Origin: Escherichia phage vB_EcoM_10C2_SA_NWU | DNA: 64,000 bases | Sequence record: OR062525 | Direction: 5' to 3' (one strand) | Shown here: positions 19,851 to 54,447 of the stretch, in pieces | Layout of the letters: each line of letters starts with the position of its first letter | Numbering within the stretch: the stretch's first letter is position 1 | Made by a program: the position numbers and the translations under genes | Notes under the pieces: generated by a model | Databases searched by the model: none | The model's input: only the letters and a program-made list of their open reading frames with translations | Told to the model about the DNA's origin: nothing

Positions 19851-20245
19851 AGATTGAGATCACTAAAGAAGGTAAGAAAGTGTCTGGAGACTATGCAACA
19901 GTAATTCGAGATGTAATGTTTGAAGCCACCAAGTTCGGCACATCTAAAGTTGGTCAAACTGTTAGTGTGCAAGGCAATATCGCCACAGGGGAGAAGATAA
20001 TCATTGTAATCAAAGGGCAGGATCCTGTGGAAGGAACAGTGGGCCGAGGAGGCTACCTGTGTATTTCTGAAGAACCGCGCATGCTGGTTGCTGATAACCC
20101 CACAGGTAAAAAGCGGGTATGTAACACGGACGAGGTGATGATTATCTATCCAGTCAACCCAGATGATCCGGCAACATGGATTGTGGGAAATGAAATCTTC
20201 TCTTTAGAAGAGTTATCCTTCCCAGCTCCGCGCTCTGTTCAGTAA
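19847..20245 (+). CDS. hypothetical protein (MKIEIT N-terminus)
   Basis: ATGA-coupled ORF. Confidence 0.4.
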   Translation: MKIEITKEGKKVSGDYATVIRDVMFEATKFGTSKVGQTVSVQGNIATGEKIIIVIKGQDPVEGTVGRGGYLCISEEPRMLVADNPTGKKRVCNTDEVMIIYPVNPDDPATWIVGNEIFSLEELSFPAPRSVQ

Positions 20246-20284
20246 TAATTTATCTTACCAGGGACGGTAGAAGTAGGAGGTAGC

Positions 20285-20518
20285 ATGAAAGTTAAATTTC
20301 TTACAGATTTAGGATACCCTTCCTTGGTTGACTGTGTTGGTAAAATTGTGGAAGCAAAACAGCTATCTGCAAACGATAATGTTGTCATGGTTAAGGGAAA
20401 AGATTTATTAGCTGCAGGTGCAGAGTCTGGCAGGATCTCTTCTGACTATACGTATTACCTGTCTTTAAGTAATCTACCAGAACGAGGCGGCAAAGGCCTT
20501 GAAGTTGTGGAGGAGTGA
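20285..20518 (+). CDS. small acidic protein, MKVK-x-L / DLLAAGA paralog family
   Basis: MKVKFL..VGKIVEA..VKGKDLLAAGA...LEVVEE; GGAGG RBS. Confidence 0.5.
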   Translation: MKVKFLTDLGYPSLVDCVGKIVEAKQLSANDNVVMVKGKDLLAAGAESGRISSDYTYYLSLSNLPERGGKGLEVVEE

Positions 20519-21048
20519 CAAGTATGCTTCTGATTAACTGGGAAGACCTCTATGGGGACAAAGACCCTGTTGCGTTTGTTGATCGTAGATGGAGGTACAC
20601 TGAAGAACAACTGGCTGCAAAAAATTTAACTGCAAAACGCAGAAAGATCATCCAGTGCAAATACAAATACGCACAGTTTGCTGCAAAAGTGTCTCCACAA
20701 ATCGAGAGCTTTGTGCTTAAATTGTATGACGAGTACCTCAAATTCAAATTGGATTTTGTACAGGTATACCGTGCACAGGTACGCCCAGATACCAGCATTT
20801 GTAGATGGAAGGTTGTTTGTGACGGTAAAGATTTGCCACTCAGTTTGACAATTGAGCAGCGCTGGGGGTATCATGAGTGCGGTCTGTATGAGACTTGGGA
20901 TGTCATTGTAGATCCTGCTAAGTACCTGAACACAGAGGAGCTGGAATATATCAATAAGGTTATCCTAGATATGTTTTTCAGCTACACCTGTGAAAACTCT
21001 AAGAAAGAACGGGATAATTTTCTTGACACCATCAGTAACCATCTGTAG
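20515..21048 (+). CDS. hypothetical protein
   Basis: co-directional ORF; start GTG 20515 or ATG 20524. Confidence 0.4.
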   Translation: MTSMLLINWEDLYGDKDPVAFVDRRWRYTEEQLAAKNLTAKRRKIIQCKYKYAQFAAKVSPQIESFVLKLYDEYLKFKLDFVQVYRAQVRPDTSICRWKVVCDGKDLPLSLTIEQRWGYHECGLYETWDVIVDPAKYLNTEELEYINKVILDMFFSYTCENSKKERDNFLDTISNHL

Positions 21049-21078
21049 TATACAATTTAACCTACAAAGGGAGGGCTA

Positions 21079-21315
21079 ATGAGTATAAATGTTGTGCTAA
21101 TAGGTTACCTGGTAATAGCCGTTATAACAGCGGTATTCTTGACAGGTGTATGCATCGTGTCTAGACGAAGGGTGAAGTTTGATGATTTTATCACCATCAT
21201 CACTGCTGCACCTTTTTGGCCTATTGTTATCTTCATCGTAATAATGTGCCTAGTTGATTACTACAAGAATATCCGTAAGGAGAAAAAGGAGAGTAGGGAT
21301 GGAGACCGCACCTAA
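21079..21315 (+). CDS. small membrane protein
   Basis: two hydrophobic segments; GGGAGGG RBS. Confidence 0.4.
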   Translation: MSINVVLIGYLVIAVITAVFLTGVCIVSRRRVKFDDFITIITAAPFWPIVIFIVIMCLVDYYKNIRKEKKESRDGDRT

Positions 21316-21534
21316 AACTGTTTATACTGTTCTTAAAGAGATTGCGTTCTACGCAGATCTTAGCCAGGCACCTTTATGGGAAAAGAGCATGTATTTAAAA
21401 TGGTGCGTTAATTTAGGGAGACCTTCCAGTGTTTCAAGCTATGTTTATTGAGATGCTATCTGGGGTATTGTTACTGGTAGCCATCTTAGGTGGTGCAGTT
21501 CTGATGTATAACTATCTTGAAAAAGGAGACAGCA

Positions 21535-21720
21535 ATGGCAAAAAATAAATCTTTAGAGCAGGCTGAAAACCTTCTCCACGAGCTGGTAAAGGAGTGGAAA
21601 GTTGAATACTCGGATTTTAATGCACGAGAGGGTGAAGATTATTGGCCTACGGAGCGCTCAGAGGGCGAATGGTATCAAGATTTTATAGAGTGGTTATATC
21701 AGACGTGTGATGAGGGGTGA
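21535..21720 (+). CDS. hypothetical acidic protein
   Basis: AAGGAG RBS before ATG 21535. Confidence 0.35.
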   Translation: MAKNKSLEQAENLLHELVKEWKVEYSDFNAREGEDYWPTERSEGEWYQDFIEWLYQTCDEG

Positions 21721-22178
21721 CGATGTTTGTTAAATATGTAAAAACGTGCCTCAACAGTCTTGGCAGAGAGCATTGGTACACCTTACTTGAAAAAGGAGAA
21801 ATTTTAACAAAATCTGGAAAGATAACTTTGATACCCTTGGACGATAAAGACCCGTCACTCCTTGTCATAGATGATTACGTTACAGGTGTGTCGTACGAGG
21901 TCTCTGTGGAGAGGTTAATACGCAGAGCTGGCGGCCCTTATGACCGAAGAGAGTATATTTTCGATTCTGTTACAGAGAAGGAAGATCCGTCTCTAATGTT
22001 CAGGATGGTAATCAGGGATATGAAATCATCTATAAATAGGATCGTAAAGGATATTAAGGAGCCTTTTAGGGTAAAAGTTAAGAAGTTTTTTGATTCTAAG
22101 ATTAACATACTTGCCGTTGTGCTAGGCGTAATTCAACTTCTGTTAATTTTGCACTATCTTGAACTGTTATTTAAGTAG
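21717..22178 (+). CDS. hypothetical protein with C-terminal hydrophobic helix
   Basis: ATGA-coupled ORF. Confidence 0.4.
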   Translation: MTMFVKYVKTCLNSLGREHWYTLLEKGEILTKSGKITLIPLDDKDPSLLVIDDYVTGVSYEVSVERLIRRAGGPYDRREYIFDSVTEKEDPSLMFRMVIRDMKSSINRIVKDIKEPFRVKVKKFFDSKINILAVVLGVIQLLLILHYLELLFK

Positions 22179-22238
22179 TGTGCAATAAGGCACAAAGGAT
22201 GTGCCATAACTAAATAAACTAAGAAAGAGGTAGAGAGA

Positions 22239-22586
22239 ATGCCAAAGATTAAATCGATATTAATGTGGGTAGCTGTTGTAGCTTTTGTAGGATACTGGAC
22301 TTGGGAAACTGAATTAAAAGATATCGGATATACCAGTCTTGAGAACAAGGCGTGCATTGGCATAACCGATGCATTCAGGCAAAATGCTATGGATCACGAA
22401 TGTGTTGATGCAGATATAGATGAGAAACTGTCTAAGGACAAAGACTTCTACCACGGGTATGCTTTGCTTGATAGTGGTGACACTGTAGAGTTCTGGTCGT
22501 GGTTCCGTAAAGATGGAACAATAAAAACAGCAGTAAAGATCTCTAACAAAGAGTTAATGCTGTTGCAGCAGAAGGAGGCTCAATGA
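22239..22586 (+). CDS. membrane-anchored hypothetical protein
   Basis: N-terminal hydrophobic segment ILMWVAVVAFVGYW; GAAAGAGG RBS. Confidence 0.4.
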   Translation: MPKIKSILMWVAVVAFVGYWTWETELKDIGYTSLENKACIGITDAFRQNAMDHECVDADIDEKLSKDKDFYHGYALLDSGDTVEFWSWFRKDGTIKTAVKISNKELMLLQQKEAQ

Positions 22587-22870
22587 TCTGGATATCCTAT
22601 GCTGATGGCACCATGCTGTATACTGCAGGTACCAGGTATGAGGTTCAGGAGGACGATAAAAAATTTATCGTAAAAACATTTGACAAGGACGACAACCTTT
22701 TGCTAGAATTGACTTACAAAGTGGGAGAGGTATCCAATATCCAATTGGATTGTGGTCATAAAGATAATCCACTCAAAAAACCTGGAATAGGCAAGGCTTC
22801 AGAAGAACGTTTGTCTCGTATTGCAGAAAGCGTTTCTCCCCAAAAATCTAAGAAGAGGATTAGAAAATGA
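22583..22870 (+). CDS. hypothetical protein
   Basis: ATGA-coupled ORF. Confidence 0.4.
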   Translation: MIWISYADGTMLYTAGTRYEVQEDDKKFIVKTFDKDDNLLLELTYKVGEVSNIQLDCGHKDNPLKKPGIGKASEERLSRIAESVSPQKSKKRIRK

Positions 22871-23067
22871 GTGACAAAATTCTTAAATTTAATACCTACT
22901 ATGAGAATGATTTGAACGATCTGTATTATATAGTGCGTAGCGAAAACCCAAATGTAGTACTGTTTTGCCGAGAACCTTTCAAAAAAGAGGAGATTGAATC
23001 TACCATGGATGTGGATCAGATTTCACACCTACTGCTCCTTGGATCATTAAAAGAGGCGGTATTCTAA
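22867..23067 (+). CDS. hypothetical protein
   Basis: ATGA-coupled ORF. Confidence 0.35.
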   Translation: MSDKILKFNTYYENDLNDLYYIVRSENPNVVLFCREPFKKEEIESTMDVDQISHLLLLGSLKEAVF

Positions 23068-23086
23068 ACCAAGGTAGAGGGTTTTT

Positions 23087-23272
23087 ATGAAGCACTATTG
23101 TCTGTCTGGTAGAATGGGTGCAGATTGTGATTGGGTTTTCTTAAAACTTGTCAGCATTCGAGAGTTCATCCCAGAGGAAGAGCAAGAAAGTGAGCTGATG
23201 TCATGGATCAACCATTACGGTAACACTTTTCGGCATGTTAAGGTGGAAGAGTTGCCAAGCGAGGCTGATTGA
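23087..23272 (+). CDS. hypothetical protein
   Basis: ORF with GAGGG RBS. Confidence 0.35.
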   Translation: MKHYCLSGRMGADCDWVFLKLVSIREFIPEEEQESELMSWINHYGNTFRHVKVEELPSEAD

Positions 23273-23367
23273 CTATGATTGCATCAATATTAACGTTTAT
23301 GGGCGGCGTGGCATTCGGATTCATTGTTTGCCTGTTTATAGTGATTATGTCTATGCGAGGCTGAATT

Positions 23368-23664
23368 ATGAAACTTTTTGAGTGGTTTAAAAAGTTTAAA
23401 TATAAAGCTGTAGCTATCGTGCCATGGTCCATTCAATGGGTGGACGATGAGGGATTACCAATTCCGGGTGATAAAGACACGGGATACTGGATCATGCTTG
23501 AAAACGGGTTTGGAAAGCGAAAATATACGTGCACAAACTCTACTCGATCTGCACTTAATAGAGTGCCTGGTTACAAACTTATGGTTGTGTGGAAAATGTC
23601 AGGCGTGCCTCCGGCTAATGCTCAATTTCTTACTGACAATCCAACCACGGTGGAGGGAGATTGA
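23368..23664 (+). CDS. hypothetical protein
   Basis: co-directional ORF. Confidence 0.4.
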   Translation: MKLFEWFKKFKYKAVAIVPWSIQWVDDEGLPIPGDKDTGYWIMLENGFGKRKYTCTNSTRSALNRVPGYKLMVVWKMSGVPPANAQFLTDNPTTVEGD

Positions 23665-23666
23665 TA

Positions 23667-23948
23667 ATGAAAAAGATTAACAGTGGTGAAGTTGAGTTTA
23701 AACTTGTCGGGAAAGGCACTTACTGGGAAGTTCGTCAAAAGGTATATTTGTTCGGTCTTATTCCCTATTGGTCTAAATTCTACTGGGGAGCTAACGAGTT
23801 GGGAAGATACGCCACCAAATCAATGGCACTTATTGGTATAGCAGAGTACATTGCAGCCAGAGATAGGGTTGGAGACACTTATTACTATACTGCGGACGAT
23901 ATTCGTAACAGTGTTTACGTCCCACAACCACCTGATGGAGACCGTTGA
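23667..23948 (+). CDS. hypothetical protein
   Basis: ATG with GGAGGGAG RBS. Confidence 0.4.
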   Translation: MKKINSGEVEFKLVGKGTYWEVRQKVYLFGLIPYWSKFYWGANELGRYATKSMALIGIAEYIAARDRVGDTYYYTADDIRNSVYVPQPPDGDR

Positions 23949-24172
23949 TGAAAGTTAAAGTTTTAGATTCAAGCTTCTATATTGGTCAGGAGCCTTTAGT
24001 AGGGAAAGTGTTTACTGCTGTCCCTAACGAAGATTATCCTGACCTTTTAAAAATAAAAGGTGCAGATCTTATTGCCGCTGGTGCATCTCAGGACTGCTTT
24101 GACAGTCAGTGGACCTACAACTTTGCCCTAGGTGAGGATGTAGAGATAGTGGAGGACGATCATGAAGGTTAA
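23948..24172 (+). CDS. small acidic protein, MKVK-x-L / DLIAAGA paralog family
   Basis: MKVKVLDSSFYIGQ..GKV..AV..GADLIAAGA..VEIVEDD; closest paralog of next gene. Confidence 0.5.
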   Translation: MKVKVLDSSFYIGQEPLVGKVFTAVPNEDYPDLLKIKGADLIAAGASQDCFDSQWTYNFALGEDVEIVEDDHEG

Positions 24173-24416
24173 AATTCTTGATTCTAACGTCTACTTGGGA
24201 CAATCCTTCCTGAAGGGAAAGGTCGTTCCTGCGGTATACTTTGAAGGGTTGCCGTGGGATGATCCTGTGCGGCAACATCACAGCTATGTAGGCCACAACG
24301 TGGTGTTTATTTTGGGATCAGACCTGATCGCTGCTGGTGCACCGGAATATTATTTCGGGGAAGAGTCATATTATGCCTTTGGGGCAGGGTCAGATGCAGA
24401 TATTGTAGAGCTGTGA
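24162..24416 (+). CDS. small acidic protein, MKVK-x-L / DLIAAGA paralog family
   Basis: MKVKILDSNVYLGQ..GKV..AV..GSDLIAAGA..ADIVEL. Confidence 0.5.
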   Translation: MKVKILDSNVYLGQSFLKGKVVPAVYFEGLPWDDPVRQHHSYVGHNVVFILGSDLIAAGAPEYYFGEESYYAFGAGSDADIVEL

Positions 24417-24428
24417 TAGGTAACCGTT

Positions 24429-24827
24429 GTGAAAAATAAACTATTCAAAGTTACAATGAAAATTCGCGGAGCTTGGAGCGTAAAGCAAGGGCGTATCCCA
24501 GAATTTGAGAAAGACTTCTACGTAGTCTCCACCTCGGAGGAGGCTGCATGCTGGCAGGCTGGCTATGCCTATGCAAGAACCTGGTACGAAGGATACCAGA
24601 CCGGGGGATATGACGGAGAAATTATCAGCAGAGGTGTGGAAGAAATTAATGTGTTGACAAGTGAAAAAGTTTTTGTTATAGTGCATCCAGATTCCAGAGT
24701 GAAGCATTACTGGAACGCCAGAACAAAAACTTGGACACCGTTTGCAGATTCTGCTACGCCACTTTTAAACCAGAAAGCTCTTGACTCTGCCCCAAGTTAT
24801 GGGATTGTTGAAGAAAAGCTAAACTGA
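24429..24827 (+). CDS. hypothetical protein, paralog of 26637..27032
   Basis: shared HPDSRVKHYWNARTKTWTP vs HPHSNIAYYWDVLNNEWTP. Confidence 0.45.
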   Translation: MKNKLFKVTMKIRGAWSVKQGRIPEFEKDFYVVSTSEEAACWQAGYAYARTWYEGYQTGGYDGEIISRGVEEINVLTSEKVFVIVHPDSRVKHYWNARTKTWTPFADSATPLLNQKALDSAPSYGIVEEKLN

Positions 24828-24844
24828 AACAGTGAGGTACTAAC

Positions 24845-25135
24845 ATGATGGATTTAGTTCTGGACACGGATAACACCGGAGAGTTTAAAAAGGATGGTGT
24901 AACAAGCGTTGACCAATCCTTCCCTGCCAAGATTGACTCAAAATGGACCTACAAGTTCGATGGAGAGATCTTCGCAAATGATGAGAAGGTTGTAGATGCT
25001 GCAGCCATTTTGAACGCTCTAGGGTACGACCCTGTGAATTCTTTGATCAAGGATCCTGTTGAGTTTGCAGAGTATGTTCGAAAAATGGCAGATCTTGCTG
25101 TGGATATTTTAAAAACTATCGACGACAAGCTGTAA
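24845..25135 (+). CDS. hypothetical acidic protein
   Basis: GAGG RBS. Confidence 0.4.
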   Translation: MMDLVLDTDNTGEFKKDGVTSVDQSFPAKIDSKWTYKFDGEIFANDEKVVDAAAILNALGYDPVNSLIKDPVEFAEYVRKMADLAVDILKTIDDKL

Positions 25136-25141
25136 AAACTG

Positions 25142-25170
25142 TTGACACAACGCTTCAGATTTAGTATCAT
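25142..25170 (+). promoter_or_regulatory. sigma70-like promoter upstream of hpf homolog
   Basis: TTGACA-N17-TATCAT, then leader hairpin AGAGGG-TTTGGTT-CCCTCT. Confidence 0.45.
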
Positions 25171-25217
25171 TGTTTTCAAAGAGGGTTTGGTTCCCTCTTC
25201 TTTAAAAGGAACACGTT

Positions 25218-25535
25218 ATGCAAATTGAAATCACTGGCAACGTAGAAATCACTGAAGGTATGGTGTCTTTCATTTCCCACAAAATGTCTAAGCTGGAGCG
25301 TTTGCACCCATCTGCCAACTATGCACGTGTGAGTGTAAAAGTTGAAAATGATCACCAGGAAGTTATGGCGTTCATTTTTGACAATTCTGGAAAAGAAGTT
25401 ATTGCCAAGGCTAAAGGCAGTGATGCTTACGAGGCAACTGACCGTATGGTAGATGTTGCAGCACGTCAGCTGGCTAAATGCGGTGGAAAGAAAGGTAAGG
25501 GGAAAGGCAAAGTAAAGATTGACTTTGGAGAATGA
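25218..25535 (+). CDS. hpf: ribosome hibernation promoting factor / RaiA-like protein
   Basis: MQIEITGNVEITEGMVSFISHKMSKLERL...VSVKVEN...DAYEATDRMVDVAARQLAK aligns by eye with my recollection of E. coli Hpf (MQLNITGNNVEITEALREFV...YAAIDGLIDKLARQL); Lys/Gly-rich tail. Confidence 0.65.
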   Translation: MQIEITGNVEITEGMVSFISHKMSKLERLHPSANYARVSVKVENDHQEVMAFIFDNSGKEVIAKAKGSDAYEATDRMVDVAARQLAKCGGKKGKGKGKVKIDFGE

Positions 25536-25672
25536 GGTGCTACAATGGGTGTGATTAAGAAATTAGTCCCAAATGTAGAGATTGCATGCTTTGAAATTAT
25601 GTTTGCAATCGCAGTTGTAGTTAATGTGTTAGGTTACGGCTATTAATATCAAATAATTGAGGAGACCTCTAA

Positions 25673-25942
25673 ATGAAAATTAAATTATTCAAAACCGAGC
25701 TGGCAGACAAAAACTGTGGACTGGTTGAAGGCATGATCGTTGAAGCACAACCAGTAGACTACATGAAGGTAGTTCGTGATGCCTTGGGTGAAGGTTTTGA
25801 TCTGATGGAACCAGCTCTGCGAGAAGATGTTATCGAGATGGCTAAAAAGCACACACCTGAAGGCATGGTGGTGTTTGTTGCACCGGGTAACGGAGAAGAG
25901 TTGATTGTAACCCCTGATGTGTATGAGATTGTAGAAGAGTAA
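25673..25942 (+). CDS. small acidic protein, probable member of MKVK paralog family
   Basis: MKIKLF...LVEGMIVEA...YEIVEE. Confidence 0.4.
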   Translation: MKIKLFKTELADKNCGLVEGMIVEAQPVDYMKVVRDALGEGFDLMEPALREDVIEMAKKHTPEGMVVFVAPGNGEELIVTPDVYEIVEE

Positions 25943-26036
25943 TCCTGCTTGGATTAGCATACTTCCTCAATAAAAAGAAAAGTTTGTAATTATTTGTGGG
26001 AAAGGAATCCCAATCTCTTACCAGAGGTGATACTAT

Positions 26037-26300
26037 ATGATTGTTTATTTTAAAACTTCAGGTGGATACCCTGATTCTCAAAGCTTGATCGGAAAAACGT
26101 GCACAGCATACTCACCTCTTGATGAAGAGGTAGGTGATATTCTACGAAATATGTATCGGATTGACCCCCAAGAAGCTTTTGATCAAAACCTTGTATTTGT
26201 CAAAGGCTCAGACATGAAGTCTTTGGGAGCATTCCCTGAAGCAGATGATGATGCCGTTTATTCGTTCATGACCCCTTTTGAAGCTATGGTTGTTGGGTGA
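26037..26300 (+). CDS. small acidic protein, MKVK paralog family (N-terminally divergent)
   Basis: GYPDSQSLIGK..VFVKGSDMKSLGA shared with 20285 paralog. Confidence 0.45.
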   Translation: MIVYFKTSGGYPDSQSLIGKTCTAYSPLDEEVGDILRNMYRIDPQEAFDQNLVFVKGSDMKSLGAFPEADDDAVYSFMTPFEAMVVG

Positions 26301-26304
26301 TAGT

Positions 26305-26637
26305 ATGAAAGTACGCTTTATTGGTGAAACAATTCCTGTGCATCTCCGGTCGCCTGAAGATTCTGCAGATCTTGCATCTCAGAAGGCGAGAGGTTATGAT
26401 AAGAAAGTAATCTCAACCGATGTAGAACTTGAGGCTACTAGTCTACCTGACCCTGCTGCATTCTTTAATCATTATGGATACTATTTCAGCAATCTGATGA
26501 ATATCGGTGAACTTGTGTTTATTAGTGGTGGAGAAATTGTTAGCAAGCTTGGCGGCGATCCGGATGTCTTTCATGAAACCTGTCCTTTTGCATTTGTGGT
26601 GGGTTCAGATGTGGAAGTTATTGAGGAGGTGCGGTAA
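26305..26637 (+). CDS. small acidic protein, probable member of MKVK paralog family
   Basis: MKVRFIG...FVVGSDVEVIEE. Confidence 0.4.
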   Translation: MKVRFIGETIPVHLRSPEDSADLASQKARGYDKKVISTDVELEATSLPDPAAFFNHYGYYFSNLMNIGELVFISGGEIVSKLGGDPDVFHETCPFAFVVGSDVEVIEEVR

Positions 26638-27032
26638 TGGTAAGCCTATACCGTGTTGAGTATAGCTCAGATACTGTGTACAACGTAAGAAGCAAAGATC
26701 GCAGCGACAGAGTGCAAGAAATGTATGTTCTTGCCGACAGTCCGTTATCTGCAGCGTTCAAGGCAGGGGCTCTTGCATCTCGTTGGAAATTTGAAGGCGG
26801 ATCTTTCTATGAAGAAACCCTTGAAGATTCTGTTGTTATTTCTTCTGTAGAGGTTTCAGATGACTACGAAGGGAAAAAGTTCGTAATGCGGCACCCACAC
26901 AGCAACATTGCGTACTACTGGGATGTTCTGAACAACGAGTGGACCCCAGATCTTCAGAAGGCTACTGTGCTAACACCGTTTTTGGCAGATAAGTTCCCAC
27001 CAGAAGGTAATTTATCCGCACTGTTTCAGTAA
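26637..27032 (+). CDS. hypothetical protein, paralog of 24429..24827
   Basis: shared motifs with 24429 ORF. Confidence 0.45.
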   Translation: MVSLYRVEYSSDTVYNVRSKDRSDRVQEMYVLADSPLSAAFKAGALASRWKFEGGSFYEETLEDSVVISSVEVSDDYEGKKFVMRHPHSNIAYYWDVLNNEWTPDLQKATVLTPFLADKFPPEGNLSALFQ

Positions 27033-27111
27033 TTTTCTTGCACACAGGTGTTGACAACGCCAACCCTGTGTGAAATAATACCTTCATCTTAACAAGACAG
27101 GAGACCGATTG

Positions 27112-27369
27112 ATGAAGATTAAATTGAAAAACCTTGAAACGGCAGAGATTCAGGACGGTGTTGATTTCCGTTCTAAAGATGGTGACATCTTAGAGGTAAA
27201 TATTCCAACCTACGAGCTGATCAAAGGTTTTGGCAACGTCCCAGAGGAAGGTATCGCAGACGTTCTTCTAATGTTAATCGTTAGTGGGACAGTGTTCTTG
27301 GGTGAAGGTGAGAACGCTATTGCAATCCCAAGCCATTTTTATGAAGTAGTTGACGAAGAGGTGCTGTAA
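27112..27369 (+). CDS. small acidic protein (MKIKL N-terminus)
   Basis: GGAGA RBS; ends YEVVDEEVL. Confidence 0.4.
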   Translation: MKIKLKNLETAEIQDGVDFRSKDGDILEVNIPTYELIKGFGNVPEEGIADVLLMLIVSGTVFLGEGENAIAIPSHFYEVVDEEVL

Positions 27370-27720
27370 ATGAAAGTAGAAATTACTGGTTTTGATGTTA
27401 GTGTGGTTCCGGAAGATATTTTAGCTAAACTTCCAGAAGGTTTTGGTAACGGCGTTGTTGTGGATGCTGTTCCTCCTACCAAAGACATTCTGCTGCAGTA
27501 CGGTGTAGCAGAGGAAGATGTCGATAAAGTTCTTACAATGATGGCAATCGATCGTGTTGTCGTTGTTAAAGGTCTCGATAATTTTGAGAGTGATCCCCTG
27601 ATTATTCGTGGAGATGACTACAAAATCATCGATAATGAAGGCCAAGAGTTCTATGAGCCTTGTGCAGAAGATATTCTTAACTTATTACTGGAAGCAGGCA
27701 CCGAAGAGGAGGACGAATAA
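27370..27720 (+). CDS. small acidic protein (MKVEITG N-terminus)
   Basis: ATG overlapping upstream stop. Confidence 0.4.
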   Translation: MKVEITGFDVSVVPEDILAKLPEGFGNGVVVDAVPPTKDILLQYGVAEEDVDKVLTMMAIDRVVVVKGLDNFESDPLIIRGDDYKIIDNEGQEFYEPCAEDILNLLLEAGTEEEDE

Positions 27721-28049
27721 TGAAGATTGACCCGTTACTGAAGGCTCGTGCAGAAAAAGCGTACACCATTAAGTTGACCAACTTGGTTCCTACTTGTCAT
27801 CCGGATGTAGGTTGGCCCGAAGGTTTGGTGGAGGGAACTGTAACAGCTGCATACCTTCCTAACATCAAATACCTCATGGAAATCTTGGAGCTGGATGAGG
27901 AAACGGCAGAAGAGTTTCAGTTGGACATGAAACAAAGTGGGACTCTGGTTATTCACGGGTGGTACAATACTAAAGATGCAGAAGATCCTCTGGTAACTTC
28001 TAATCTGGCATATGAAATCTTAGGACCTTTGAACCTGGAGGAAGACTAA
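27720..28049 (+). CDS. small acidic protein
   Basis: ATGA coupling. Confidence 0.4.
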   Translation: MKIDPLLKARAEKAYTIKLTNLVPTCHPDVGWPEGLVEGTVTAAYLPNIKYLMEILELDEETAEEFQLDMKQSGTLVIHGWYNTKDAEDPLVTSNLAYEILGPLNLEED

Positions 28050-28336
28050 TGAAAGATCTGGTTAAGATTAAGATTAAAGATACCAATGGAGAACTCAGCC
28101 ATTTTGGAATTAATGATGGTGACGAGCTGATCGCACACCTGCCTACCAAGGAGGTTGTAAGCAAAGCAGTTGCCGGAGAAGAAGCTGCAATGCAGGCTGC
28201 AGGTGTGGATGAAAACTATGTAGCTATGTGCATGTGCCGAGATCAGGTTGTTCTGTATAAAGCGTATCGACCAAACGGAGCCACGGAGTGGCTTGTATTC
28301 CGACCCGAAGGATATGAAATCTTAGAGGCACTATGA
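28049..28336 (+). CDS. small acidic protein
   Basis: ATGA coupling; ends YEILEAL. Confidence 0.4.
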   Translation: MKDLVKIKIKDTNGELSHFGINDGDELIAHLPTKEVVSKAVAGEEAAMQAAGVDENYVAMCMCRDQVVLYKAYRPNGATEWLVFRPEGYEILEAL

Positions 28337-28425
28337 TAAATCTTGCCAAGGTTGCAACGGCACTGTTAATTATTTGCTGGTCAGTAACCTTAACACTGTG
28401 TCTTGTATTTCAGTGAGGTGCTTGT

Positions 28426-28689
28426 ATGAACATCCTGATGTGGGTTATAGCAGTGGCGTTTGTTGCATGTTTTTGCTGCTGGGTTGCGGTGAGGATTTCT
28501 GTAGCTACCCTTCGGAAGTTGGGGTTCTCAGAATGGGATATTAATATCCTTTCTTTTCGCAATGAAACAATCTCAGCCGCCCTGCTTTGTAAGAAATTCA
28601 AGTGGGAACCTTGTGAGGTCATGAACTATCTAAGAACAGGTGATATTCCTGAAAGATTTAAAAAAGTTCTTGACGGCAAGGATAAATGA
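28426..28689 (+). CDS. membrane-anchored small protein
   Basis: N-terminal hydrophobic helix ILMWVIAVAFVACFCCWVAV. Confidence 0.4.
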   Translation: MNILMWVIAVAFVACFCCWVAVRISVATLRKLGFSEWDINILSFRNETISAALLCKKFKWEPCEVMNYLRTGDIPERFKKVLDGKDK

Positions 28690-28844
28690 CAGTATAGTGA
28701 CTAACAAGAGGTGAGGAGTGACTGATTTTACTGAAGCTTTAATGATGGCCTTGTCTGTTTTAGCGCTATCGGTGTGTTTTGGGGCGTTATTCACATCTCT
28801 GGTTAAAGTTTTACATACAGTATTATTACCCGAGGAGCGCAGTA

Positions 28845-29096
28845 ATGACGAAGATTGACTTGAATGCTGGCGACCATGTTGTTGTCAAATGCATCGGAGA
28901 TTATCTTGGATTCACAATCGGCAATACTTACGAGGCGGTAGTGGCGAAGGTTTATCATGATAAAGTCCTCAGTCTTGTATTTGACTGCGATGATGATGGG
29001 GATGACCGATACGTCTGTGAGGTGCTGGCACGAGACGATAGTGAAGACCAGAAATTCCTGGTTATTGAACTGAACGGTATTTTTGTAGAACGTTAA
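28845..29096 (+). CDS. hypothetical acidic protein
   Basis: ATG with GAGGAG RBS. Confidence 0.4.
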   Translation: MTKIDLNAGDHVVVKCIGDYLGFTIGNTYEAVVAKVYHDKVLSLVFDCDDDGDDRYVCEVLARDDSEDQKFLVIELNGIFVER

Positions 29097-29124
29097 TTTA
29101 AAACAACATAAGGAGACTCTTACT

Positions 29125-29430
29125 ATGGCTAAATCTAAAGTTGAACTGTTCACCTCTCTTCCTTCTGACACTGCAGAACGTGATCGCCTTCGCAAAACAA
29201 TCGAAGAGCTGGTGGAACTCCAGCTTCAGATTAAAGATCTGAAAGATGCCATCAAGGATATCATTCTTGTTGAGAAGCAGGATCATCTGTATTCTCCTAA
29301 ATTCATCAAATCTTTGGTGGCTACAGAGTTTGATATCCGCTACGAAGCTGAAAAACGTCGCGCTAAGATTGAAGAAGAGGTTGAGCACATGTCTGAGGCA
29401 GACATTCTGTTCAAACGCTCTGTAGAATAA
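29125..29430 (+). CDS. hypothetical coiled-coil protein
   Basis: AAGGAGA RBS; charged helical sequence. Confidence 0.4.
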   Translation: MAKSKVELFTSLPSDTAERDRLRKTIEELVELQLQIKDLKDAIKDIILVEKQDHLYSPKFIKSLVATEFDIRYEAEKRRAKIEEEVEHMSEADILFKRSVE

Positions 29431-29437
29431 TATGGCA

Positions 29438-29462
29438 GAGGGGCTACGGCCCCTCTTTCACT
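29438..29462 (+). terminator. rho-independent terminator / attenuator
   Basis: GAGGGGC-TACG-GCCCCTC hairpin then T-rich tract. Confidence 0.5.
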
Positions 29463-29482
29463 ATTTGCAAAAGGAACCAGCT

Positions 29483-29809
29483 ATGAGAATGCCAATCACT
29501 GTGAAAGAGCTAAATGAACGTGATGCAGGTGGTCTATGGCCTGCACGAAAAATCCGCTGCGTCTATATGAAAGAGAATCTTGAACATCTTGATCAACAGA
29601 TCAAGGTCGGTGATATTTTCGAGGTCTTCTACTCCAATCGTCGCAACTGGGAAACCATTCAGCCTTCTGGTTTTGTTCTTGCCAAACTTGACACTGGAGA
29701 AGTGATTATCCCTGGGTTGGATATTGTCTTCGAAATTATCCAGGAGTGGGATCCGGATAAGATTAGATACGAAGAATTATTCGGTAAAGGTATTATCAAA
29801 CCTGTGTGA
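29483..29809 (+). CDS. hypothetical protein
   Basis: start moved downstream of terminator hairpin to ATG with AAGGA RBS. Confidence 0.4.
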   Translation: MRMPITVKELNERDAGGLWPARKIRCVYMKENLEHLDQQIKVGDIFEVFYSNRRNWETIQPSGFVLAKLDTGEVIIPGLDIVFEIIQEWDPDKIRYEELFGKGIIKPV

Positions 29810-30117
29810 GGTGGATTATGTCTACAAAGGCGGCTAAATACTCCTATATGCCATCAACCTCTGCAGAGGTAGACTTTAGTTTCGATGTATTTCCACTGTT
29901 TGAGGTGGTTCTGGCATACCCTACAATACTATCCACTCCTGAATCACTTGTGCCTGTTAAGTTGCAGAACGCTATGCATTCCATGCACTACAACAATAAA
30001 TGTAGGCACAGATGGTGTCAGGACGAGGAAAAAGATTTGGATAGTTTGAGGGATTTTGACAGTCACCTTTTGACACCTTTCAGCTACTCCAACCTTGATA
30101 AGCCCTCATGGGTATAG
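29806..30117 (+). CDS. hypothetical protein
   Basis: ATGA coupling. Confidence 0.4.
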   Translation: MRWIMSTKAAKYSYMPSTSAEVDFSFDVFPLFEVVLAYPTILSTPESLVPVKLQNAMHSMHYNNKCRHRWCQDEEKDLDSLRDFDSHLLTPFSYSNLDKPSWV

Positions 30118-30142
30118 CAAAATATCAAATTTAAGACACCTA

Positions 30143-30170
30143 GGACGCTCTGTGGCGTCCTTTTCTTTAT
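30143..30170 (+). terminator. rho-independent terminator
   Basis: GGACGC-TCTGTG-GCGTCC hairpin followed by TTTTCTTTAT. Confidence 0.6.
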
Positions 30171-30810
30171 CTGGTGCACGATTGCATACCTTGGACAGAT
30201 AATCTCATTACAGAGCGTTTAAGAGCTTCCTACAAACAACTCCATATTTCGAGCGTAGCGAGAACGCACGTCCGTTTTGACCCAAATCACCATACGCTCG
30301 GATTTTAACCAAACCCTCGCGGCGTTTCTGTTGACACATTGCCGCTCCAGTGATAGTATCCACACATCGTTTGGAGAATATGGGATACACAATGAAAACA
30401 TTGTCAGAGGTTTTGGTGGTGATTCTGATGATCATTACGTCCATAGTGGCTGTTGCCGGAATACTCACGGGTGGAATATGATAAACACACATGCATCTGA
30501 AGAGACATCCAAAGGAGTGACTATATGTCCCTTGGCTGAGCCAGTGAAAGAGGAAAACTTCGATTCTGAAGATTCTCCATCTTCGCTCCAGGTAGATCCT
30601 GAGGCTGATGACCTAACGTGGGAAGACATCGTAGATATCTGGTTCTCTATTATGCCTGAGCACGAAGAGTTCAGGGGTGGTAGACTATGAAGCACCGAGC
30701 CCACACAGGTTCCTCATGCTAAAGCATGGCCTGAAGAGGCAAACGTGCATAATTCCAGTGCATTGGAACATATAAACCCTGTTCACATTCTCATTTCCAG
30801 AGGAGATTTC

Positions 30811-31026
30811 ATGAAGATAGAAATATTTGGTGGAGCTGACAACACTCGTGGCCTGATTTACCTTGAATTCGATGAATCATACCTGCCAGAGGTGTTAAAT
30901 ATAGACTCTGTTGCTGAGGCTTTGGGAGTAAGTCCTAAAGATCTCTACTCTGGTGCTGAGATTGATGGTTGGGAGGAGACCATGAACATTGATTTCAGTG
31001 AAGTAGGTGATGAACCACTGGACTGA
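30811..31026 (+). CDS. small acidic protein (MKIEIFGG N-terminus)
   Basis: GAGGAG RBS before ATG 30811; last + strand gene before noncoding region. Confidence 0.4.
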   Translation: MKIEIFGGADNTRGLIYLEFDESYLPEVLNIDSVAEALGVSPKDLYSGAEIDGWEETMNIDFSEVGDEPLD

Positions 31027-32536
31027 CACACAATTAGCTACCCGGCTAAAGTGCTGGGAGCACCTATAACACATCTTTCAACTAAATTTCCTACCACCAC
31101 AATCACTTACCTCCCACACATGACTGTTTGCTTGTTTAGTGAGCAGTCATGCCTTGACATTCTTGCCTATCCTGATAAAATTAAGTTCTTCTCTTTTCTT
31201 TTACCGAGTAATTCGGGTTTTCTGTTCTCTTCGGTTTGAAGGGGTATGGAGATACACCTGAGTGAACAGGGTGAACAACCGAACCATTGGCTATGGCATT
31301 AGCATGGCGAAGCGGACGGGTGACGAAAGAGGGGCCGGAGGACACCAGTCACTGCCATATGGTATATGGGTGATAACCTGAAGAGTCTGAATAAGTGTTT
31401 AAGTACCAGTCAGAGGAAAAGGTGAATGGTAGCCGAAGGGGGAGGGGGGTTTCTTGTATCTTTAATTTGTATATTATGTATACACTTGTAAACCAATATC
31501 ATCTGAATCTGTTTACCACACAAAGTGGATAGAGACAAATATCACCTATTAAACTTGAATTATTTATAGAAAATACCACAACACCGCTTAAGTCTTTGAT
31601 TTTACACACAAATCCTACAGATATTCACCCTCCATATTTAACATACTTGTAACATATTCCATACTCTACCTGTCTGATCAATTTCCCCAACTACATCCCC
31701 ATATTTTCCCTGTCTGTACTACCCCTGCCCCGCCGGGAGTCCCGTCATATCTGGCTTTCCAGCAAATATCACACCCACAAATATCATTGCCTGAAGAGGG
31801 TTTCATCCCATAATACCTGCCTTACCTGAAGAGCGCTTCATACACCACGTAAATTTTTTAATTGACCTCCCCCTGCCCCGCCGGAGAGGTTGGCTTTTCC
31901 CACACAGACCTGAAGAGTCAGCCAGAAATATCTGAATAGGCCCAATTCTACCACGATTTTGACCTGACCTACAGGGAGGCCCGAAGGGTCTAGCTTTCAG
32001 CTAGAGTCCTTGCAGGACCTACAGGAGCGCTGCCAGGCGGACGGAATGGGAATACTTCTCATTCTTATAACAATTCTCAAATATCGAGGCAGTGAGAGAA
32101 ATTAATAGGCCAGGCCGTTCACACAGTGGCACAACATTTGCAACCTATTTTGTGTGGATGAATGAGAATACCTATCATTGTGAGAACTGTTATCATTACG
32201 GGCAATTTAACATAATACCCATTATGCGCACCACTGGCGATACATACAGGGATTGATAACATGGGTTACTGTTTACGCACATAACAATTATATTTCTTAT
32301 TATTTGTGGGGGATATAGTTAGCAGCCGATAGATTAGATATTGACCTGCGGACTTCTGACCGTCTAGACGTCTAAACGCCCACACAGCAAGGGTTATACA
32401 TACATCACTGAATGTAAACAGGACTGCAAAAATGCTACCATACAAGCTTGTAAATTTTTCATGTAGCACTTGACAAAGAGGAGAAAAACTTGTCTGACAT
32501 AATGGTGACACAATATGACATAATTGACATGCCTGA

Positions 32537-54180: not shown

Positions 54181-54447
54181 TAGTTCAGGTAGGTCGTTAA
54201 GCTACCCCGCACCATTACGTGCATAGCCATACGTTTTCACGTAGGATCGGACCATCTCATATTCCTATGATAAGCAACCACAGGAATCCTCCCATTTAGA
54301 CCGCACTTGCTGGTCTACTTCCTTTCGGAATGGCCTCTGAGCGTTCGCTCTTTTGAGCGCTTCGTTGCGGATTACCTTGCCATAAGGTTTAGGCTTCCCG
54401 CAGTTAAAGAGGTTATTCGACATAGATTACTCTATGAAGCCACAATG

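What the first reader, a model, noticed from the sequence alone, without database searches (positions are those of the whole stretch)
25142..25535. Phage-encoded ribosome hibernation factor (HPF/RaiA) homolog
The 105-aa product aligns by eye along most of its length with my recollection of bacterial Hpf (MQIEITGNVEITEG... vs MQLNITGNNVEITEA...; KVEN...; DAYEATDRMVDVAARQLAK vs DMYAAIDGLIDKLARQL). It has its own promoter and a leader hairpin. A hibernation factor in a lytic phage suggests control of host ribosome pools or 100S dimers during infection.
Basis: partly seen in the sequence, partly recalled or inferred. Interest (0 to 1): 0.6.

Follow-up and report, generated by a model that had tools for sequence, protein, structure and literature searches.

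The report
Known phage ribosome-hibernation-factor homolog
The gene is a genuine but divergent copy of the bacterial ribosome hibernation factor HPF, carried by rV5-like coliphages; it has been annotated since 2008 and was tested once in 2019, so the finding is correct but not new, and what the protein does during infection is still unknown.

Summary
ORF 25218-25535 (+) encodes a 105-aa protein that passes the curated cut-offs of Pfam PF02482 (48.3 bits against 23.7) and TIGR00741. It is 43% identical to E. coli HPF and 25% identical to RaiA. [quoted passage not shown] A near-consensus sigma-70 promoter (25142-25170) and a 7-bp leader hairpin (25179-25199) are present, but the hairpin has no significant covariation support and is missing from a divergent ortholog.

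The window is an rV5-like Vequintavirus, and the protein is identical to rV5 gp139. That gene is already annotated as sigma-54 modulation protein, RaiA or HPF. Mizuno et al. 2019 expressed it in E. coli and found it in the extract but not on high-salt-washed 70S/100S ribosomes, with no change in 100S.

New details from this work:
- Purifying selection is strong (dN/dS about 0.05).
- There is no close cellular donor.
- 8 of 22 HPF ribosome-contact residues are retained, including R83, K87 and K91. K80, T53 and H55 are lost.
- The lineage has its own invariant Lys/Gly-rich 16-aa tail.

The most likely role is an early-expressed factor that occupies the decoding channel of vacant host ribosomes; this is inferred, not shown. 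Novelty: already known. Interest: low to moderate.

The parts
25142..25170 (+). Sigma-70-type promoter: TTGACA (25142-25147), 17-nt spacer, TATCAT (25165-25170). Predicted transcription start near 25177.
   Evidence: Consensus scan gives 11 of 12 matches. Annotated as promoter P144 in rV5 record NC_011041. The -35 hexamer and spacing are invariant in 10 Vequintavirus relatives, and TTGACA is retained in the divergent lineage L002. Activity is not tested.
25179..25199 (+). 5'-proximal leader hairpin: 7-bp stem AAGAGGG/CCCTCTT with a 7-nt loop, starting 2-3 nt after the predicted transcription start.
   Evidence: Folds at -9.9 to -11.1 kcal/mol and is unusual against random windows (2.4%). 95% of cells pair across 9 distinct relatives, but there is only one compensatory change and three uncompensated ones, so covariation is not significant. 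Absent in L002. A role as a 5' mRNA stabiliser is inference only.
25206..25210 (+). Shine-Dalgarno-like AAGGA, 7 nt upstream of the ATG.
   Evidence: Read directly from the sequence. Invariant in the 10 aligned relatives.
25218..25484 (+). Residues 1-89 of the coding sequence: the HPF/YfiA (Ribosomal_S30AE) core domain, beta1 2-7, alpha1 13-29, beta2 33-42, beta3 47-55, beta4 60-67, alpha2 70-89.
   Evidence: Pfam PF02482 matches residues 3-88. AF2 pLDDT is mostly above 90. Foldseek hits to HPF structures have rmsd 1.0-1.4 A. 43% identity to E. coli HPF.
25485..25535 (+). Residues 90-105 plus the stop codon: lineage-specific, predicted-disordered Lys/Gly-rich tail GKKGKGKGKVKIDFGE (net charge +4).
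   Evidence: pLDDT below 50. Nearly invariant in 10 Vequintavirus relatives, varying only V/I at residue 99 and GE/WD at the end. None of 106 parsed family representatives has a tail with K+G of 50% or more. The 64%-identical ortholog P0004 has a different but also basic tail with an aromatic and acidic end.

Best explanation
The gene encodes rV5 gp139, a true but divergent member of the HPF/YfiA ribosome-hibernation family. Its core is of the short-HPF type. It is transcribed by host sigma-70 RNA polymerase from its own near-consensus promoter in the phage's early-gene region. The most likely mechanism is that the folded core docks in the channel between head and body of the host 30S subunit, over the A and P sites of vacant ribosomes. 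It would do so through the retained alpha2 basic track (R83, K87, K91) and K26, E44, N57, E60 and D75, with the flexible polycationic tail adding rRNA affinity along the mRNA path. This would park and protect ribosomes that are idle in starved hosts or that become free as host mRNA disappears, keeping a reusable pool for phage translation. Shown here: family membership, fold, promoter sequence, purifying selection, and the pattern of retained and lost contact residues. Inferred: early timing, ribosome binding, the role of the tail, and the benefit to the phage.
For: - Profile hits lie above curated cut-offs.
- The best PDB sequence matches are E. coli HPF. Identity is 43% to HPF against 25% to RaiA.
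- The AF2 model has the HPF topology, and its top 35 PDB fold matches are all ribosome-bound hibernation factors.
- Of 22 HPF residues reported to contact the ribosome (bioRxiv 10.1101/2025.10.07.680626), 8 are identical, including 3 of the 4 basic residues shared by HPF and YfiA. E. coli HPF and YfiA share only those 4 contact residues and still bind the same site.
- dN/dS is about 0.05 across 10 Vequintavirus relatives, with dS up to 0.58.
- The gene sits at the same syntenic position in 117 Vequintavirus records and in a divergent uncultivated lineage.
- The promoter matches 11 of 12 consensus positions, and all 11 of the best promoter-like sites in 20-32 kb are on the + strand, as expected for host-polymerase-dependent early genes.
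Against: - In the only experiment, Mizuno et al. 2019 found rV5 HPF expressed from pBAD24 in crude extract but not in 70S/100S fractions, and 100S levels did not change (PMC6375957). The authors themselves list stringent salt washes and growth phase as possible causes.
- Several contact residues are replaced: Y30L, R33S, T53F, H55F, K80V, K89G, K93G, H95G.
- Contact positions are no better conserved between rV5 and the 64%-identical ortholog than the protein as a whole (my count).
- No transcriptome or proteome timing data for this gene were found.
Confidence: 0.6

Rival explanations
1. RaiA-like antagonist of dimerisation. The core binds the HPF site, but the extended basic tail runs toward the RMF site as the YfiA tail does. 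It would displace or exclude host RMF/HPF and keep ribosomes as recyclable 70S rather than 100S. The phage could then translate in starved, stationary or defence-arrested hosts. This is essentially the competition idea proposed by Mizuno et al.
For: The tail is 10 residues longer than that of E. coli HPF. It begins at a Gly-Gly helix break at 89-90 and is invariant in the genus. The YfiA tail is reported to progress toward the RMF site, while the short HPF tail does so less clearly. Mizuno et al. proposed that viral HPF may compete with cellular homologs to prevent dimers. RMF was reported to rise during DRT2-mediated defence (review PMC13434031).
Against: The tail shares no sequence with the RaiA tail. 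The RaiA equivalog model scores only 17.6 bits against a cut-off of 158. No change in the small 100S fraction was seen on expression, although cells were probably not in stationary phase. A factor sitting over the A and P sites still blocks translation until it is removed.
Confidence: 0.2
2. Repurposed fold. The HPF-type (dsRBD-like) domain has lost ribosome binding and now binds another RNA or a small ligand, or sequesters a host factor. An example would be an anti-defence sponge such as phage SPO1 Acb4, whose fold resembles HPF.
For: No ribosome association was detected. K80, T53, H55 and Y30 are lost. Acb4, a nucleotide sponge, is reported to resemble V. cholerae HPF 4HEI structurally (PMC11722364). 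The gene lies among small early genes of unknown function.
Against: Similarity to HPF is at the sequence level (43%), not only the fold level. The hallmark D69-x-Y71-x-x-x-D75 and R83-Q84-L85 motifs and the K87/K91 basic track are retained. All strong fold matches are ribosome-bound factors. The negative ribosome result used high-salt washing.
Confidence: 0.17
3. Neutral passenger: a host-derived gene picked up by chance and no longer useful to the phage.
For: Mizuno et al. saw no effect on expression in E. coli.
Against: dN/dS is about 0.05 with many synonymous changes. The gene is present in all 117 matching Vequintavirus records and in a 64%-identical lineage at the same position. It has its own conserved promoter. 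No close cellular donor exists: the best non-phage representative scores 60 bits, against 202 bits within the phage family, so the gene has been in phages for a long time.
Confidence: 0.02

Closest known systems
Escherichia phage rV5 gp139 (ORF144; YP_002003641 / ABI79209), described as viral HPF by Mizuno et al. 2019
   Same: The protein is 100% identical over all 105 aa. It has the same neighbours and the same annotated promoter, P144. This is the same gene in a sister isolate; the window is 100% identical over 2.3 kb to phage vB_EcoM_12A_SA_NWU.
   Different: Nothing of substance. The closest record mislabels the gene as 'ATP-dependent protease La Type I'.
E. coli short HPF (YhbH; PDB 2rql, 4v8h, 6h4n)
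   Same: 43% identity over residues 1-87. [quoted passage not shown] Ribosome-contact residues K26, E44, N57, E60, D75, R83, K87 and K91 are retained.
   Different: It scores 55.8 bits against the HPF equivalog model, whose cut-off is 125. It lacks Y30, R33, T53, H55, K80, K89, K93 and H95. It carries a 16-aa Lys/Gly tail in place of KDKLKQH. It is driven by a sigma-70 promoter in a phage early region, whereas the cellular gene is in the rpoN operon (own knowledge). It was not detected on washed ribosomes and had no effect on 100S.
E. coli RaiA / YfiA / protein Y (PDB 1n3g, 4v8i)
   Same: Same fold. Both have a C-terminal extension beyond helix alpha2, basic first and then acidic at the very end.
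   Different: Only 25% identity. 17.6 bits against a cut-off of 158. The tail sequences are unrelated, and the phage tail is about 7 residues shorter.
HPF-family proteins of other phages (Cronobacter phage GAP32, Escherichia phage PBECO4, Xanthomonas phage XaC1; PHROG 8990)
   Same: They are phage-encoded members of the Ribosomal_S30AE family with the same fold. GAP32 is listed with rV5 in Mizuno et al. 2019.
   Different: Only 21-25% identical in structural alignment. They fall in a separate PHROG: the rV5 protein scores 235.9 bits to phrog_12469 and 29.3 bits to phrog_8990. They are carried by jumbo phages of about 350 kb, so they were probably acquired independently.
Long HPF of Firmicutes, Thermus and others (PDB 5njt, 5ngm, 6gzx)
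   Same: The N-terminal domain has the same fold.
   Different: The phage protein has no C-terminal dimerisation domain. It is 105 aa in total, and its tail is predicted to be disordered.

Membership tests
HPF/YfiA ribosome-hibernation family (Pfam PF02482 Ribosomal_S30AE; TIGR00741) | Profile match above the curated threshold over the whole domain | tested here: met
   PF02482 scores 48.3 bits against 23.7, covering residues 3-88 and profile positions 1-83 of 88. TIGR00741 scores 45.9 bits against 40.9.
HPF/YfiA ribosome-hibernation family (Pfam PF02482 Ribosomal_S30AE; TIGR00741) | [quoted passage not shown] | tested here: met
   The AF2 model has pLDDT 84.6 and elements E2-7, H13-29, E33-42, E47-55, E60-67, H70-89. 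The top 35 Foldseek PDB hits are all family members, with TM up to 0.93 and rmsd 1.0 A.
HPF/YfiA ribosome-hibernation family (Pfam PF02482 Ribosomal_S30AE; TIGR00741) | Basic track on helix alpha2 (K80, R83, K87, K91) that contacts 16S rRNA in both HPF and YfiA | tested here: inconclusive
   Three of four are retained (R83, K87, K91). K80 is Val in the window protein and Thr in the 64% ortholog.
HPF/YfiA ribosome-hibernation family (Pfam PF02482 Ribosomal_S30AE; TIGR00741) | Binds the 30S decoding channel of non-translating ribosomes | not testable with these tools
   The one published test was negative after high-salt washing (PMC6375957). No structural or low-salt binding data were found.
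Gammaproteobacterial short HPF (NCBIfam NF007780 / PRK10470 equivalog) | Score at or above the equivalog cut-off | tested here: not met
   55.8 bits against a cut-off of 125. This is still the best-scoring NCBIfam model.
Gammaproteobacterial short HPF (NCBIfam NF007780 / PRK10470 equivalog) | About 95 aa, ending shortly after helix alpha2 with the basic K89/K91/K93/H95 contacts | tested here: not met
   The protein is 105 aa. Residues 89-95 are G G K K G K G, followed by 10 more residues.
Gammaproteobacterial short HPF (NCBIfam NF007780 / PRK10470 equivalog) | Works with RMF to convert ribosomes to 100S dimers | not testable with these tools
   Mizuno et al. saw no discernible effect on 100S. 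This was not examined in stationary phase or in hpf/raiA/rmf mutants.
RaiA / YfiA / protein Y (NCBIfam NF007654 / PRK10324 equivalog) | Score at or above the equivalog cut-off | tested here: not met
   17.6 bits against a cut-off of 158. 25% identity to E. coli RaiA.
RaiA / YfiA / protein Y (NCBIfam NF007654 / PRK10324 equivalog) | C-terminal tail that reaches the RMF site and prevents 100S formation | tested here: inconclusive
   A 16-aa tail exists and is conserved. Its sequence is unrelated to the RaiA tail, and its path on the ribosome cannot be modelled here.
Long HPF | C-terminal dimerisation domain after a linker | tested here: not met
   There is no second Pfam domain, the protein ends at residue 105, and the tail is disordered.

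The most novel reading that the evidence does not exclude
The invariant Lys/Gly-rich tail turns an HPF-type core into a phage-specific anti-hibernation factor. It would occupy the HPF site but exclude host RMF, as RaiA does. Ribosomes in starved gut hosts, or in cells driven into RMF-dependent dormancy by a defence system, would then stay as recyclable 70S that the phage can reuse. The published negative result would be explained by high-salt washing and exponential-phase cells.
Probability: 0.15. Interest if true: 0.6.

Novelty: already known. Interest (0 to 1): 0.25.

Why it matters
If gp139 does bind ribosomes, it is a case of a virulent phage manipulating the idle-ribosome pool of its host. 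That bears on how phages infect the slow-growing or starved bacteria that dominate in the gut, and on the design of therapeutic phages, since rV5-like phages are common therapy candidates. That question is already posed in the literature for this very protein and remains open after one inconclusive experiment. What this analysis adds is modest: the gene is under strong constraint, it is not a recent host capture, part of the canonical contact surface has changed, and a unique conserved tail is the obvious target for mutagenesis.

Tried and rejected
- Leader hairpin as a conserved regulatory element. Covariation across 10 relatives is not significant, with one compensated and three uncompensated changes and 210 of 500 shuffles doing as well. 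The hairpin is absent in lineage L002. It is kept as a real but unproven feature.
- Hairpin as an intrinsic terminator. It is not called by the scan, and only CTTT follows the stem.
- A recent cellular donor. Exhaustive HMMER found nothing above 60 bits outside the phage family. The named nearest clusters are gammaproteobacterial (Thorsellia, OM182), but distant.
- The 'Salmonella' hit in the phage collection is a bacterial contig, AGRM01000002, not a phage.
- P0128, a 1160-aa protein with 8 matched stretches, is a repetitive PPC-domain protein. The match is spurious.
- K/G-rich tails in other family members: none among 106 parsed representatives.
- Later functional work on phage HPF. Ten literature searches found nothing beyond Mizuno 2019 and annotation-level mentions. 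The Azotobacter phage TayeBlu 'hibernation factor' refers to the unrelated Balon family.
- Polikanov et al. 2012 could not be read under the PMC id I recalled for it. Contact residues were taken from a 2025 preprint instead.
- The Acb4-like sponge idea rests only on a fold resemblance reported in the literature. It is kept as a low-probability rival.
- tRNA genes or Rfam elements near the gene: none found.

Full report
**What is there**

- Upstream lies TTGACA-17 nt-TATCAT at 25142-25170, 11 of 12 matches to the sigma-70 consensus.
- A transcript starting about 7 nt after the -10 hexamer (about 25177) would begin with a 7-bp hairpin, AAGAGGG-TTTGGTT-CCCTCTT, at 25179-25199.
- An AAGGA Shine-Dalgarno sequence follows, 7 nt before the ATG.

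**Is it more than chance?**

The protein match is far beyond chance.

- Pfam PF02482 (Ribosomal_S30AE) gives E = 1.8e-12 and 48.3 bits against a gathering score of 23.7, covering residues 3-88.
- TIGR00741 (HPF/YfiA family) gives 45.9 bits against a cut-off of 40.9.
- The best solved-structure relatives by sequence are E. coli HPF entries 2rql, 4v8h and 6h4n, with E of 5e-12 to 2.5e-11 over residues 1-89 of both proteins.
- Pairwise identity is 43% to E. coli HPF and 25% to E. coli RaiA.
- An AlphaFold2 model built on 26 aligned sequences has pLDDT 84.6 and pTM 0.75. Its elements are beta1 2-7, alpha1 13-29, beta2 33-42, beta3 47-55, beta4 60-67 and alpha2 70-89, and residues 90-105 are disordered.
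- The 35 best Foldseek matches in the PDB are all HPF, YfiA or pY proteins. The top ones are V. cholerae HPF (rmsd 1.0 A) and E. coli HPF (rmsd 1.1-1.4 A).

**Where it comes from, and what is already known**

The 2.3 kb around the gene is 100% identical to Escherichia phage vB_EcoM_12A_SA_NWU and 97-98% identical to about a hundred other rV5-like phages of the genus Vequintavirus. The protein is 100% identical to rV5 gp139 (ORF144).

In the public records the gene is annotated variously as 'sigma 54 modulation factor', 'ribosome-associated translation inhibitor RaiA', 'hpf' or 'ribosome hibernation factor'. The rV5 reference record also annotates the promoter (P144) at the position found here.

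Mizuno et al. 2019 (PMC6375957) listed rV5 HPF among virus-encoded ribosomal proteins and tested it.

- Expressed from pBAD24 in E. coli, it was detected by mass spectrometry in crude extract but not in sucrose-gradient 70S/100S fractions prepared under high-stringency salt. [quoted passage not shown]
- The authors named growth phase, genuine loss of binding, and dissociation during salt washes as possible reasons.
- They speculated that viral HPF might compete with cellular homologs to prevent dimer formation.

Mathieu et al. 2020 (PMC6969025) again noted hpf in their five rV5-like isolates 'as already described'. Ten literature searches found no later functional work. The finding is correct but already known.

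**What I could add**

1. The gene is maintained by selection. Across ten Vequintavirus relatives chosen to span 91-100% DNA identity, synonymous divergence from the window gene reaches dS = 0.58, while dN stays at or below 0.025. The median pairwise dN/dS is 0.048.

2. It is not a recent host capture.
 - An exhaustive HMMER scan of 1.84 billion cluster representatives found one representative for the phage family (202 bits). The next best protein scored only 60 bits.
 - Identity to Enterobacterales HPF is 36-41% in the multiple alignment.
 - The nearest named clusters are gammaproteobacterial. That agrees with the placement in Mizuno et al., but not with their reading of a relatively recent transfer.
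 - A second lineage is 64% identical (P0004). It sits at the same syntenic position in uncultivated rV5-like contigs of up to 137 kb.

3. Distribution is narrow. Among 50,697 phage records, HPF homologs are essentially confined to 117 Vequintavirus genomes. The exceptions are a jumbo Xanthomonas phage, a few short fragments and one bacterial contig. BFVD adds the jumbo phages GAP32 and PBECO4 at 24-25% identity.

4. The ribosome-contact surface is only partly conserved. I used the contact list for E. hormaechei and E. coli HPF from a 2025 cryo-EM preprint (10.1101/2025.10.07.680626).
 - The phage protein keeps K26, E44, N57, E60, D75, R83, K87 and K91. E60 is aligned by phmmer and BLASTP, while MAFFT shifts the loop gap.
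 - Q29R, H62I and T86A are mild changes.
 - Y30 (Leu), R33 (Ser), T53 (Phe), H55 (Phe), K80 (Val), K89, K93 and H95 (all Gly) are lost.
 - According to the same preprint, E. coli HPF and YfiA share only four contact residues (K80, R83, K87, K91) and still bind the same site. The phage protein's eight matches to HPF, including three of those four, are therefore compatible with ribosome binding but do not prove it.

5. The C-terminus is unique. After a Gly-Gly break at 89-90 comes KKGKGKGKVKIDFGE, which is predicted to be disordered.
 - It is nearly invariant within the genus.
 - Its composition is not matched in any of 106 family representatives examined.
 - The P0004 lineage has a different tail, KSKGIDKRTAKWDY, which is also basic with an aromatic and acidic end.

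**Promoter and hairpin**

The promoter hexamers and spacing are conserved in all ten relatives, and TTGACA is retained in the divergent lineage. All eleven promoter-like sites with at least 10 of 12 matches in 20-32 kb lie on the + strand, the strand of the many small genes there. This is the pattern expected for early genes read by host polymerase. The timing itself is inferred, because no transcriptome was found.

The hairpin is real. It is the strongest 5'-proximal structure among the window's 14 TTGACA promoters, and only 2.4% of random 30-nt windows fold as well. The support for it as a selected structure is weak, however.

- The z-score against shuffles is -0.13.
- One relative (phiWec189) has a compensated G-C to A-T change, while three others carry the same G-to-A change uncompensated.
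- The covariation measures are matched by 210 of 500 shuffles.
- The lineage with the 64% ortholog has no hairpin at all.
- It is not terminator-like.

A role as a 5'-terminal stabiliser of the mRNA is the most economical guess, and it remains only a guess.

**Mechanism**

I commit to the following as most likely (about 0.6). gp139 is made early from P144. Its core binds the decoding channel of vacant host 30S/70S as HPF does, and the polycationic tail adds affinity along the mRNA path. The effect would be to park and protect idle ribosomes for later phage use. Hibernation factors are reported to shield ribosomes from RNases (abstract of PMC8406268, seen).

Three rivals remain.

- A RaiA-like variant (about 0.2), in which the tail excludes RMF and prevents or reverses 100S formation.
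- A repurposed fold with a non-ribosomal target (about 0.17). This is prompted by the negative ribosome result, the lost contacts, and the published fold resemblance between HPF and the phage sponge Acb4.
- A neutral passenger gene (about 0.02), which the selection data contradict.

From my own knowledge, not checked here, RMF, HPF and YfiA are loosely bound factors that high-salt washing tends to strip off. If so, the 2019 negative result is weak evidence against binding.

**Family placement**

The protein is a member of the HPF/YfiA family: profile and fold were tested and met. It is not an equivalog of gammaproteobacterial HPF (55.8 bits against 125, a different C-terminus) or of RaiA (17.6 bits against 158). 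It lacks the dimerisation domain of long HPF. It is best described as a phage-specific branch of the short-HPF type, and PHROGs places it in its own family (phrog_12469, 235.9 bits), apart from other phage S30AE proteins (phrog_8990, 29.3 bits).

**Verdict**

- Observation: confirmed.
- Interpretation as an HPF homolog: supported.
- Functional suggestion: untested, and the one published experiment did not support it.
- Novelty: already known.
- Interest: 0.25. The biological question is a fair one, but it has been on record for this exact protein since 2019. What is new here is limited to the selection, divergence, contact-residue and tail observations.

Noticed in passing
window 54228-54463 (-): A group I catalytic intron (Rfam RF00028) scores 64.7 bits against a gathering score of 50, with a full-length model match. 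I did not determine which gene it interrupts.
   Followed up: no
window 25545-25646 (+): A 33-aa hydrophobic ORF (rV5 gp140, MGVIKKLVPNVEIACFEIMFAIAVVVNVLGYGY) starts 10 nt after the HPF stop codon and has its own GAGG ribosome-binding site. It is conserved across the genus and annotated once as a putative membrane protein. It is absent from the divergent lineage L002. It is probably co-transcribed with the HPF gene.
   Followed up: partly
window 25519-25546 (+): A second promoter-like site, TTGACT-16 nt-TACAAT with an extended TG and 10 of 12 matches, overlaps the last codons of the HPF gene. Its -10 hexamer runs into the ATG of the 33-aa ORF. Its significance is unknown.
   Followed up: no
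window 20285-27032 (+): Paralogous small ORFs flank the HPF gene. ORFs 20285-20518, 23945-24172, 24162-24416 and 26278-26637 are 30-42% identical. ORFs 24429-24827 and 26637-27032 are 27.7% identical over 119 aa (E = 6e-8). This points to local duplications in the early region. None has a known function.
   Followed up: partly
public records OR062528, OR062530, MT884008-11 (matches to window 25218-25535): These records, which include the two closest to the window (OR062528, OR062530), label the HPF homolog 'ATP-dependent protease La Type I'. That is a misannotation.
   Followed up: yes
L007, L012 and 16 other records: Eighteen 'UNVERIFIED: Campylobacter phage' records with host given as C. jejuni are Vequintavirus genomes 94-100% identical to coliphage rV5 in this region. 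The host label looks doubtful.
   Followed up: no
L011 (E. coli O157 typing phage 4) and L010 (phage slur16): Typing phage 4 has a GTG start codon and a D69N change in the conserved D-x-Y motif. slur16 has an extra Asn that restores the cellular 'GNNVEIT' spacing, giving 106 aa.
   Followed up: no
L002-L004 (Logan assemblies ERR6997038, ERR4623478, SRR25571739): An uncultivated rV5-like lineage on contigs of up to about 137 kb carries a 64%-identical HPF homolog at the syntenic position. It has the promoter but neither the leader hairpin nor the 33-aa ORF. It has no DNA-level match in the phage record collection.
   Followed up: partly
window 20000-32000: All 11 sigma-70-like sites with at least 10 of 12 consensus matches are on the + strand. 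In total 39 sites were found against 26.1 +/- 4.9 expected from shuffles. This is consistent with a host-polymerase-dependent early-gene block. No tRNA genes occur anywhere in the window.
   Followed up: partly
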